Positions 21,192 through 21,993 of a DNA stretch of 23,717 nt are shown in pieces. Both the position numbers and the translations under genes were made by a program. The DNA comes from Gemmatimonadota bacterium (GTDB lineage: Bacteria > Gemmatimonadota > Gemmatimonadetes > Palauibacterales > KS3-K002). The notes beneath the pieces are model-generated. The model was given only the letters and a program-made list of their open reading frames with translations. It was not told where the DNA came from and made no database searches. Within the stretch, counting starts at the first letter, position 1; each line of letters starts with the position of its first letter. Location: the NCBI GenBank assembly GCA_039586795.1, contig JBDHJS010000051.1, forward strand, positions 1 to 23,717, written 5' to 3'.

Positions 21192-21226
21192 CTTGGAGTT
21201 GGACGAAGCAAAGAGAGGGTCGCCAA

Positions 21227-21295
21227 GTGAGTCATCTTTTTGGCAGCAGCTGGTACCTGACCCACGCGTTCTTCAACTTTAGAGAACGCGCCTAG
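21227..21295 (+). CDS. Putative 22-aa attenuator leader peptide MSHLFGSSWYLTHAFFNFRERA
   Basis: SD-like AGAGAGGG (21212-19) lies 7 nt before GTG. The TAG stop overlaps the 5' arm of the antiterminator. Codons match the downstream tRNA anticodons. Confidence 0.7.
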   Translation: MSHLFGSSWYLTHAFFNFRERA

Positions 21296-21342
21296 CGCAG
21301 GTGCGGCTGGCCCTTTTCGGCCGGAGTGAAGCCCGCCTGCGC
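21295..21342 (+). promoter_or_regulatory. Putative antiterminator hairpin
   Basis: GCGCAGGTG(C)GGCT (21295-308) pairs with AGCCCGCCTGCGC (21330-42): 13 bp with one G-U and one bulge. Inner stem GGCC-cttttc-GGCC. Confidence 0.65.
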
Positions 21343-21365
21343 CAACGCCGCAAGCGGGCTTTTTT
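21329..21365 (+). terminator. Intrinsic terminator inside the tRNA operon (attenuator)
   Basis: AAGCCCGC-c-TGCG, loop ccaacgc, CGCA-a-GCGGGCTT, with a T6 tract at 21360-65. Confidence 0.8.
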
Positions 21366-21408
21366 CGTACAGCTGTTTGACAGACTAGATTGTTGGTGAA
21401 GGTGGTAT

Positions 21409-21480
21409 TCCCGGGTAGCTCAGCGGCAGAGCGGGTGGCTGTTAACCACTAGGTCGTCGGTTCGAATCCGACCCCGGGAG
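21409..21480 (+). tRNA. tRNA-Asn (GTT)
   Basis: Acceptor TCCCGGG/CCCGGGA, anticodon arm ggtgg-ctGTTaa-ccact, TTCGAAT loop. Confidence 0.95.
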
Positions 21481-21503
21481 CTTAGGTGGACACTGGACGA
21501 CCG

Positions 21504-21576
21504 GGCTGGGTAGCTCAGCTGGTAGAGCACGGGACTGAAAATCCCGGTGTCGGCGGTTCGAGTCCGCCCCCAGCCA
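21504..21576 (+). tRNA. tRNA-Phe (GAA)
   Basis: Acceptor GGCTGGG/CCCAGCC, anticodon arm cggga-ctGAAaa-tcccg. Confidence 0.95.
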
Positions 21577-21588
21577 TGGAGTGGGTTT

Positions 21589-21661
21589 AGGCCCGTAGCT
21601 CAATTGGCAGAGCACCGGTCTCCAAAACCGGGGGTTGCAGGTTCGAGTCCTGCCGGGCCTG
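21589..21661 (+). tRNA. tRNA-Trp (CCA)
   Basis: Acceptor AGGCCCG/CGGGCCT, anticodon arm ccggt-ctCCAaa-accgg. Confidence 0.95.
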
Positions 21662-21665
21662 TGCT

Positions 21666-21737
21666 GCTCGCGTAGCTCAGTGGTAGAGCGCTTCCTTGGT
21701 AAGGAAGAGGTCGCGGGTTCAATCCCCGCCGCGAGCT
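21666..21737 (+). tRNA. tRNA-Thr (GGT)
   Basis: Acceptor GCTCGCG/CGCGAGC, anticodon arm cttcc-ttGGTaa-ggaag. Confidence 0.95.
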
Positions 21738-21755
21738 TAGTAGTTTCGGCTGGAG

Positions 21756-21829
21756 GCGCCAGTAGCTCAGTCGGATAGAGCAGCGGCCTTCTAAGCCGCA
21801 GGTCCGGGGTTCGAATCCCTGCTGGCGCA
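21756..21829 (+). tRNA. tRNA-Arg (TCT)
   Basis: Acceptor GCGCCAG/CTGGCGC, anticodon arm gcggc-ctTCTaa-gccgc. Confidence 0.95.
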
Positions 21830-21833
21830 TTCC

Positions 21834-21905
21834 GCCCCCGTCGTCTAACGGTTAGGACACCAGTCTTTCAAGCTGGCGGTAGGAGTTCGATTCTCCTCGG
21901 GGGCG
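21834..21905 (+). tRNA. tRNA-Glu (TTC)
   Basis: Acceptor GCCCCCG/CGGGGGC, anticodon arm ccagt-ctTTCaa-gctgg. Confidence 0.95.
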
Positions 21906-21920
21906 CTGGAAAACAACATA

Positions 21921-21993
21921 GGGGCCGTAGCTCAGTTGGGAGAGCGCTTGAATGGCATTCAAGAGGTCAGGGGTTCGACTCCCCTCGGCTCCA
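21921..21993 (+). tRNA. tRNA-Ala (GGC)
   Basis: Acceptor GGGGCCG/CGGCTCC with G3-U70, anticodon arm cttga-atGGCat-tcaag (A32/U38, typical of Ala-GGC). Confidence 0.95.

What the first reader, a model, noticed from the sequence alone, without database searches (positions are those of the whole stretch)
21212..21993. Candidate self-sensing tRNA operon: leader peptide whose codons match all seven downstream tRNAs
Seen: an SD-led ORF GTG AGT CAT CTT TTT GGC AGC AGC TGG TAC CTG ACC CAC GCG TTC TTC AAC TTT AGA GAA CGC GCC TAG. Each downstream anticodon has its exact Watson-Crick codon in the last 14 codons: GTT/AAC, GAA/TTC (x2, plus wobble TTT), CCA/TGG, GGT/ACC, TCT/AGA, TTC/GAA, GGC/GCC. That covers 9 of the last 14 codons and 7 of the last 8, although these tRNAs read only about 13 of 61 codons. 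The match is isoacceptor-specific, including AGA, usually rare in GC-rich genomes. Known: leader-peptide attenuation controls amino-acid biosynthesis operons (trpL, hisL, pheL) and pheST (pheM). I know of no case controlling a tRNA gene array. Inference: shortage of any encoded tRNA stalls the ribosome and permits read-through, giving feedback control of tRNA supply. Alternatives: an aromatic-amino-acid or tRNA-modification sensor (4 Phe, Trp, Tyr), or chance.
Basis: partly seen in the sequence, partly recalled or inferred. Interest (0 to 1): 0.93.

Follow-up and report, generated by a model that had tools for sequence, protein, structure and literature searches.

The report
Leader-peptide attenuator gating essential tRNA operon
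A 22-codon mini-gene wired into a switchable transcription stop sits in front of this bacterium's only genes for seven tRNAs, is conserved in relatives, and likely lets the cell make more of those tRNAs when ribosomes slow on the codons they read, a feedback control I did not find described for tRNA genes.

Summary
In this Gemmatimonadota genome a promoter drives tRNA-fMet, then a 22-codon ORF (21227-21295) embedded in mutually exclusive 1:2, 2:3 and 3:4 (terminator) helices, then a boxA and seven single-copy tRNA genes. All 11 family genomes with that interval assembled keep the ORF and helices. Two other leader types occupy the same position in the sister family (8 of 78 genomes) and a neighbouring order (33 of 81); the rest keep only a terminator. 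The match to all seven tRNAs is not conserved (9 of 18 leaders). What is conserved is Phe, Asn, Trp and AGA (18 of 18). Where the operon lacks tRNA-Asn and tRNA-Arg(UCU) but carries tRNA-Asp, leaders lose Asn/AGA and carry Asp-x-Trp at the switch point. Best reading: a trp-type attenuator (about 0.88) sensing decoding by the operon's own tRNAs (about 0.6 overall). No expression data; RNA pairing explains part of the codon pattern. The scan noted this design before on other DNA (phage tRNA arrays, marked in doubt; one Gemmatimonadota 21-tRNA operon). My literature searches found no description.

The parts
21073..21101 (+). sigma-70-type promoter: TTGACA, 17 nt, TACGTT (inferred)
   Evidence: Sequence; TTGACA at this spacing recurs upstream of fMet in relatives. 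The consensus scan missed it because the -10 matches only 3 of 6.
21118..21192 (+). tRNA-Met(CAT), initiator type; first gene, upstream of the terminator and so not gated
   Evidence: initiator type judged from the anticodon stem (own knowledge).
21212..21219 (+). Shine-Dalgarno-like AGAGAGGG
   Evidence: purine-rich SD-like tract 5-9 nt before the start in the 20 type-1 loci.
21227..21295 (+). Leader ORF, 22 codons; conserved W9 and A14-F15-F16-N17-F18-R19(AGA)
21247..21259 (+). Segment 1 (codons 7-11), pairs with segment 2 when no ribosome is present (predicted)
   Evidence: 88.9% of cells paired in 18 sequences; in the RNAalifold consensus.
21266..21289 (+). Inner hairpin; loop carries the AAC, TTT and first base of AGA codons
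   Evidence: 120 of 126 cells paired; consensus structure.
21295..21309 (+). Segment 2, begins at the stop codon; antiterminator strand
   Evidence: 2:3 helix 97.0% paired; fold -25.4 kcal/mol for 21297-21345.
21330..21342 (+). Segment 3, shared by antiterminator and terminator
21331..21365 (+). Intrinsic terminator (3:4 hairpin plus six T)
   Evidence: z=-4.0, 0 of 200 shuffles as stable; 93.9% paired. The simple terminator scan did not call it.
21372..21383 (+). boxA-like Nus antitermination site
   Evidence: Same motif lies 204 nt before 16S and 111 nt after 16S in the rRNA operon of G050.
21409..21994 (+). Gated tRNA genes Asn-GTT, Phe-GAA, Trp-CCA, Thr-GGT, Arg-TCT, Glu-TTC, Ala-GGC, each single-copy
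22008..22047 (+). Hairpin with T-rich tail closing the operon (likely terminator)
   Evidence: Fold.

Best explanation
A conserved leader ORF lies inside alternative RNA helices that end in a terminator in front of seven single-copy tRNA genes, and it likely works as a ribosome-mediated transcription attenuator that raises output of those tRNAs when ribosomes slow on codons they read. Shown from sequence and comparison: promoter, fMet gene, ORF, four helices, terminator, boxA, tRNA genes. Inferred steps: (1) RNA polymerase always makes tRNA-fMet. (2) A ribosome loads on the leader. (3) If it runs to the stop codon it covers segment 2, the 3:4 terminator forms and most transcripts end near 21365. 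(4) If it lags at the Trp codon or the Phe-Phe-Asn-Phe-AGA run because functional tRNA-Phe, -Asn, -Arg(UCU) or -Trp is short, segment 2 pairs with segment 3 and polymerase reads through. (5) boxA then protects the untranslated tRNA array from Rho. (6) With no ribosome, 1:2 plus terminator is favoured in most sequences. The sentinels are a subset of the operon (Phe, Asn, Arg-UCU, Trp; Thr and Glu secondary), not all seven. The switch must be leaky, since the tRNAs are essential.
For: ORF kept in 11 of 11 family genomes with the interval assembled and 9 metagenome loci. Changes in the core are silent or add an in-frame AGR codon; start varies GTG/ATG; all 6 sequences that lost the TAG gained a 1-nt insertion that makes a new in-frame TAG three codons on. 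Helices paired at 89, 97, 94 and 95% versus 24-59% when slid. Folding with a ribosome footprint: terminator advantage is smallest at codons 9-10 and 19-20 (about -2 kcal/mol) and largest at the stop (about -13), for three footprints. Phe, Asn, Trp, AGA in 18 of 18 distinct leaders; Trp retained at codon 6, 9 or 10-11. In variable codons 3-13, operon-read codons are 29 of 80 distinct states versus 18.2 expected (p=0.004); non-operon ANN, UNN and NAY codons are at expectation. All 17 Thr codons are ACC/ACT, the operon's isoacceptor (44% genome-wide; 6 distinct states). Second leader type: AGA in 7 of 8 against a 0.19% background. Third type, before operons lacking Asn and Arg-UCU but carrying Asp: AGA 2 of 33, Asn 7 of 33, Trp 30 of 33, Asp two codons before the anchor in 24 of 33; type 1 has 0 Asp codons versus 25 expected. 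In type 3 the switch flips just after Asp-x-Trp.
Against: No RNA, translation or mutant data. Covariation in the helices does not exceed shuffles: pairs are kept mainly by invariance and G-U changes. Several matched codons are base-paired (TGG in 1:2; GAA, TTC and two bases of AGA in the inner hairpin); type-3 Asp/Trp codons are paired about 50-75% of the time. The covariation rests on two operon layouts and four related leader groups, so it is not a statistical test; expected counts used G000 codon usage for more GC-rich genomes. Type-3 leaders under-use Leu, Val, Tyr and Phe though their tRNAs are in the operon; Asp is not enriched overall (53 vs 49); type 2 carries Asp (6 of 8) without tRNA-Asp; g26 leaders show no enrichment (p=0.55); f6 leaders use ACC/ACT without Thr-GGT. 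Most relatives outside the family have only the terminator (70 of 78; 48 of 81). The footprint model favours the terminator at equilibrium at nearly every position, so read-through needs kinetics. In Streptomyces ilvB, mutating candidate regulatory codons had no effect (PMC1262725, passage read).
Confidence: 0.6

Rival explanations
1. It is an attenuator, but a general translation-coupling valve: it reads ribosome availability and overall elongation speed, and the codons are set by RNA pairing and local base composition.
For: Many conserved codons are paired. Leader sequences turn over completely between families while the terminator core persists. Terminator-only versions are the majority outside the family.
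Against: Loop codons AAC, TTT and the A of AGA are unpaired yet fixed at residue level; silent CGA would keep both peptide and fold and is not seen in the 11 genomes found by synteny. Operon-read codons are enriched in variable positions and switch with operon content.
Confidence: 0.17
2. It senses aromatic amino acids or a tRNA modification class (ms2i6A37 on UNN readers, t6A37 on ANN readers, queuosine on NAY readers) rather than the supply of the operon's own tRNAs.
For: Trp is the one codon common to all leader types (18/18, 6/8, 30/33). Type 1 has 128 ANN and 107 UNN codons versus 77 and 54 expected, and Ser is AGY in 29 of 30. Asn and Asp are both queuosine tRNAs (own knowledge).
Against: Non-operon ANN (10 vs 10.8), UNN (7 vs 6.7) and NAY (10 vs 8.9) states are not enriched; NAY codons are at or below expectation in all groups; type 3 is ANN-poor. 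No biosynthesis or modification gene lies downstream.
Confidence: 0.11
3. The nascent peptide is an arrest peptide that stalls with an antibiotic or metabolite, so tRNA output rises under translation stress.
For: AFFNFR starts at codon 14 in 20 of 20 loci. A basic-X-basic motif, recalled as a macrolide stall site, follows FNF in 15 of 18 leaders. Type 3 keeps D-S/T-W with silent changes. A tRNA operon induced by translation antibiotics is known in Anabaena (PMC8421152, abstract).
Against: The three peptide types share no motif but Trp. Arg19 is always AGA/AGG, never the CGN codons that make up 90% of Arg. The RER codons are helix strands and are lost in 3 of 18. No Pfam or NCBIfam leader family matched.
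Confidence: 0.08
4. The terminator is just a leaky step-down that sets the fMet-to-elongator tRNA ratio, and the ORF is a by-product of an RNA structure or processing signal; a weak internal promoter could feed the array.
For: Terminator-only spacers work in most relatives. A TAnnnT hexamer lies shortly before tRNA-Asn in about half of the type-1 spacers.
Against: SD, start, frame and stop are kept, with stop-codon compensation; three unrelated ORF types end at the same helix; the TTTGACA there is a boxA and the hexamer decays to CAGATT or TTGAGG in two genera.
Confidence: 0.04

Closest known systems
Classical leader-peptide transcription attenuators (trpL, hisL, pheL; multivalent thrL, ilvL)
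   Same: SD-led short ORF, 1:2 / 2:3 / 3:4 helices, stop codon at segment 2, intrinsic terminator, several amino acids sensed in one leader (pheL: PMC3082878, abstract start and one passage; the rest recalled).
   Different: The gated genes are tRNAs, not biosynthetic enzymes; regulatory codons are a short mixed run and single rare codons, with isoacceptor choice (AGA, ACC) matching the gated tRNAs; a tRNA gene precedes the leader on the same transcript.
Attenuators of aminoacyl-tRNA synthetase genes (E. coli pheM-pheST; Streptomyces trpS, leuS)
   Same: Feedback on supply of charged tRNA by a leader peptide (PMC1262725, passages read).
   Different: Here the product is the tRNA itself, several species at once.
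Anabaena trn L-array and repressor TrcR
   Same: A tRNA operon turned up when translation is impaired (PMC8421152 and PMC10272220, abstracts and outlines).
   Different: That array is supernumerary, plasmid-borne and controlled by a protein repressor; this one holds single-copy housekeeping tRNAs and has a cis-acting ORF and terminator.
T-box riboswitch
   Same: Terminator/antiterminator switch responsive to tRNA status; a UGGNACC lies in segment 1 of the window.
   Different: No Rfam T-box match even at E<=5; UGGNACC in only 6 of 18 and it pairs with segment 2, not the terminator arm; no stem I.
E. coli metY-nusA-infB and Salmonella thrU-tufB operons (recalled)
   Same: tRNA gene first, then a partial terminator or translation-coupled switch.
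   Different: Those gate protein genes; no leader peptide gating tRNA genes.

Membership tests
Classical ribosome-mediated transcription attenuator | Short conserved ORF with SD and start upstream of the gated genes | tested here: met
   11 of 11 family genomes with the interval assembled.
Classical ribosome-mediated transcription attenuator | Intrinsic terminator between ORF and gated genes | tested here: met
   z=-4.0; 93.9% paired; T tract.
Classical ribosome-mediated transcription attenuator | Antiterminator sharing the terminator's 5' arm, and a 1:2 helix competing for segment 2 | tested here: met
   97% and 89% paired; covariation not above shuffles.
Classical ribosome-mediated transcription attenuator | Geometry: ribosome at stop covers segment 2, ribosome at regulatory codons frees it | tested here: met
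   Folding model only.
Classical ribosome-mediated transcription attenuator | Regulatory codons correspond to the product of the gated genes | tested here: inconclusive
   Phe, Asn, Trp, AGA conserved and operon-read codons enriched; all-seven match 9 of 18; some codons fixed by pairing.
Classical ribosome-mediated transcription attenuator | Gated genes are amino-acid biosynthesis or synthetase genes | tested here: not met
   Only tRNA genes follow.
Classical ribosome-mediated transcription attenuator | Translation of the leader changes termination in vivo | not testable with these tools
   No usable RNA data: 24 runs held at most 10% of the words.
T-box riboswitch | Rfam T-box model match with stem I and specifier loop | tested here: not met
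T-box riboswitch | Conserved UGGN bulge in the antiterminator | tested here: not met
   UGGNACC in 6 of 18 and located in segment 1.
Known leader or arrest peptide families | Profile match | tested here: not met
   0 Pfam and 0 NCBIfam families at E<=1 for one type-1 and one type-2 peptide; weak test for 22-30 residues.
Known leader or arrest peptide families | Sequence-specific stalling in vitro | not testable with these tools
   Needs toeprinting.
tRNA L-array (Anabaena trn type) | Supernumerary tRNA genes | tested here: not met
   All seven are single-copy in G000.
Nus boxA | Same motif in rRNA leader and 16S-23S spacer of the lineage | tested here: met
   G050, (one genome with rRNA context among 5 searched).

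The most novel reading that the evidence does not exclude
Bacteria can autoregulate housekeeping tRNA supply by a codon-matched test ORF: a chromosomal operon of essential single-copy tRNAs is transcribed in proportion to how slowly ribosomes read those tRNAs' own codons, and the test codons are rewritten as the operon gains or loses tRNAs (Asn/AGA versus Asp-x-Trp across two Gemmatimonadota orders). This would be direct, isoacceptor-level feedback on tRNA gene expression.
Probability: 0.55. Interest if true: 0.92.

Novelty: new variant of a known kind. Interest (0 to 1): 0.8.

Why it matters
How cells match individual tRNA levels to codon demand is an open question; known controls (own knowledge) act on stable-RNA promoters as a class. 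A leader that tests specific codons and gates the matching tRNA genes would be a direct feedback loop. It is about 200 nt, self-contained and portable into a reporter, so synonymous swaps and tRNA dosage make the idea testable in a laboratory strain. It would also be a compact biosensor of tRNA shortage.

Tried and rejected
RNA evidence: 24 runs listed, none holding more than 10% of the words; no read-level evidence was obtained, so termination and expression stay open. Promoter/terminator consensus scan found neither element, a sensitivity limit. One search used wrong columns for the terminator and was redone. TTTGACA after the terminator as a -35: rejected for boxA. T-box and other Rfam families: only sub-threshold chance hits. 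Similar leaders before other tRNA loci of G000: none seen in 330-nt upstream stretches of all called tRNA genes; a crude genome-wide ORF-plus-terminator scan gave 2 unrelated hits and missed this element, so it says nothing. Type-1 pattern: 0 viral contigs; 10 of 11 genome hits Gemmatimonadota, one chance hit in a Myroides contig; 1 of 10 metagenome hits was a chance hit and dropped (L064). Five further f2 genomes gave a different, unlinked Met locus. In 20 of 37 tRNA-Asn hits fetched from other orders the gene is monocistronic with no leader. In the orders of G146 (25 loci) and G256 (30 loci, families f5 and f10 only; f7 not fetched) fMet does not head such an operon. Literature: searches (leader peptide / attenuation / tRNA operon, genes or array; phage; Gemmatimonad) returned nothing describing this; the library lacks most subscription papers, and a review of attenuation I tried to open was not held. 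No supplements were read.

Full report
Observation. The ORF, SD and tRNAs are as described. tRNA-Met(CAT) lies at 21118-21192, the ORF at 21227-21295, and Asn-GTT, Phe-GAA, Trp-CCA, Thr-GGT, Arg-TCT, Glu-TTC and Ala-GGC at 21409-21994. Each of the seven is the only gene with its anticodon in the 4.68-Mb, 97.8% complete genome. The 13 codons they read make up 22.7% of genome codons; the leader has 10 of 21 (p=0.011) and all seven Watson-Crick codons, seen in about 1 in 10,000 random draws (post hoc). The lineage is Gemmatimonadota. Order names used below (Palauibacterales/KS3-K002 for the window's order, Longimicrobiales for that of G148) are my recalled guesses; the tools give only handles.

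Anatomy. A TTGACA-17-TACGTT promoter precedes fMet. After the stop codon come segment 2 (21295-21309), segment 3 (21330-21342) and a terminator ending in six T (21331-21365; z=-4.0). Segment 3 pairs with segment 2 or segment 4; segment 2 can also pair with segment 1 (21247-21259) inside the ORF; a hairpin spans codons 14-21. A motif at 21372-21383 also stands in the rRNA leader and spacer of G050, so it is a boxA.

Conservation in the family (type 1). Of 31 family genomes, 15 have the promoter-fMet match. Eleven carry the leader; G004 is an fMet/Asn chimera that looks like an assembly collapse, G012 and G017 break inside fMet, and G013 has a lone divergent Met gene. Nine of 10 metagenome pattern hits add to these; being pattern-found they cannot show non-silent change in the core. 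The 20 loci give 18 distinct ORFs. All start 13 codons before AFFNFR. Core changes among the synteny-found genomes are silent (three) or insert an AGG/AGA codon. Six sequences lost the TAG and all six have a one-base insertion that makes a new TAG three codons later. On an alignment of 18 full spacers (L041 truncated and L068 duplicate left out) the 1:2, 2:3, 3:4 and inner helices are paired in 89, 97, 94 and 95% of cells, against 24-59% for the three slid controls; covariation does not exceed shuffles. RNAalifold returns 1:2, the inner hairpin and the terminator, with AAC, TTT and the A of AGA unpaired.

Switch model. Masking RNA under a ribosome and comparing terminator with antiterminator ensembles, the terminator's advantage is about -2 kcal/mol with codons 9-10 or 19-20 in the A site, -5 to -7 at codons 12-17, and about -13 at the stop; the profile shifts by one codon with the footprint assumed. 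Without a ribosome the terminator is favoured by 3-15 kcal/mol. Before segment 4 emerges the terminator's 5' arm is mostly sequestered unless the ribosome is at the last codons. This is a model, and read-through needs kinetic trapping.

What is matched. Phe, Asn, Trp and AGA occur in 18 of 18 leaders, Glu in 17, Thr in 13, Ala in 11, all seven in 9. Yet operon-read codons are 29 of 80 distinct states in variable codons 3-13 against 18.2 expected (p=0.004), while non-operon codons of the same modification classes are at expectation. All 17 Thr codons are ACC/ACT. G010 lost tRNA-Thr and kept ACC.

Other leader types. In the sister family the operon is longer and at least 8 of 78 genomes with the interval assembled have a different leader (type 2; F-A-R(AGA)-E-F-x-N...W in six) ending in a strand complementary to the terminator arm; the others have only a terminator. 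AGA is in 7 of 8 against 0.19% background; the two g26 leaders show no enrichment. An earlier scan note (e1-7863468) led me to the order of G148. There fMet heads Phe-Trp-Glu-(Thr)-(Gly)-Asp-Ala-Leu-Leu-Arg-... of up to 21 tRNAs, without Asn or Arg-UCU, and at least 33 of 81 genomes carry a third leader type (24 of 54, 9 of 25, 0 of 2 by family; leaders picked by eye). Trp is in 30 of 33, Asp two codons before the anchor in 24 of 33, AGA in 2 and Asn in 7. Asn+AGA observed/expected is 56/11 in type 1, 17/7 in type 2, 7/22 and 5/10 in type 3; Asp is 0/25 in type 1. In 27 type-3 leaders modelled (6 with atypical spacing left out) the switch turns to termination just after Asp-x-Trp. Against: Leu, Val, Tyr and Phe are under-used in f3 leaders, Asp is not enriched overall, type 2 has Asp, and these are two operon layouts, not many independent events.

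Mechanism. Most likely a multivalent trp-type attenuator whose sentinels are low-abundance or single-gene tRNAs of the operon: Trp in nearly all, plus Phe, Asn and Arg-UCU here. Slow decoding gives read-through and more tRNA; fast decoding or no translation gives termination. I put the attenuator at about 0.88 and the full self-sensing reading at 0.6; general coupling 0.17, amino acid or modification sensing 0.11, arrest peptide 0.08, no regulation 0.04.

Known systems and novelty. It works like trpL/thrL and pheM-pheST but fails their membership on gated genes. Leader attenuators on synthetase genes are described in PMC1262725 (passages read), which also reports a case where candidate regulatory codons did not matter. 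The Anabaena trn array responds to translation stress through a repressor (PMC8421152, PMC10272220; abstracts and outlines, plus a term search of the first that found no 'attenuation' or 'leader'). PMC3082878: abstract start and one irrelevant passage. Seven searches found no leader-peptide control of tRNA genes, in a library missing most subscription papers. The scan's own notes report the design for phage tRNA arrays, with two marked in doubt; I did not test those and do not count them as support. Verdict: real, conserved, a new variant of a known mechanism on a new class of target; interest 0.8.

Noticed in passing
L011-L026, L078-L110 (fMet-Asn spacers of family f2): In terminator-only spacers the hairpin's G-rich 3' arm resembles the 5' acceptor strand of tRNA-fMet, so the 5' arm could pair with the tRNA instead; possibly a leader-free switch or just GC bias.
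   Followed up: no
L096, L097 (G126, G054): fMet is absent: the promoter leads straight into the terminator hairpin and then tRNA-Asn.
   Followed up: partly
L205, near 1501 (G050); L203, L219, L208, L211, L214, L215: A second boxA lies inside the long tRNA operon between Arg-CCG and Leu-CAG; boxA motifs also follow promoters and tRNA-His at other loci, suggesting wide use of Nus antitermination in this lineage.
   Followed up: partly
L007, L017, L063, L302-L325; G000 contig C39: Spacers between tRNA genes hold short 6-8 base units repeated in tandem and then inverted, forming long hairpins; the unit differs by genome.
   Followed up: no
L061 after tRNA-Asn; L027 after a truncated tRNA-Trp: The array is interrupted by foreign-looking coding DNA, consistent with an integrated element or misassembly.
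   Followed up: no
L290 (G148): Spacer keeps the g36-type helices but no start codon for the leader was found; possibly a decaying leader.
   Followed up: no
window 11041-20855: Three paralogous ~700-aa proteins with a TPR-like N-terminus and TolB/PD40-like repeats, next to a response regulator and histidine kinase transcribed away from the tRNA promoter (by eye).
   Followed up: no
window 1-2484: Protein with repeated ~88-residue Thr/Gly/Cys-rich modules followed by a phytase-like C-terminal domain (by eye).
   Followed up: no
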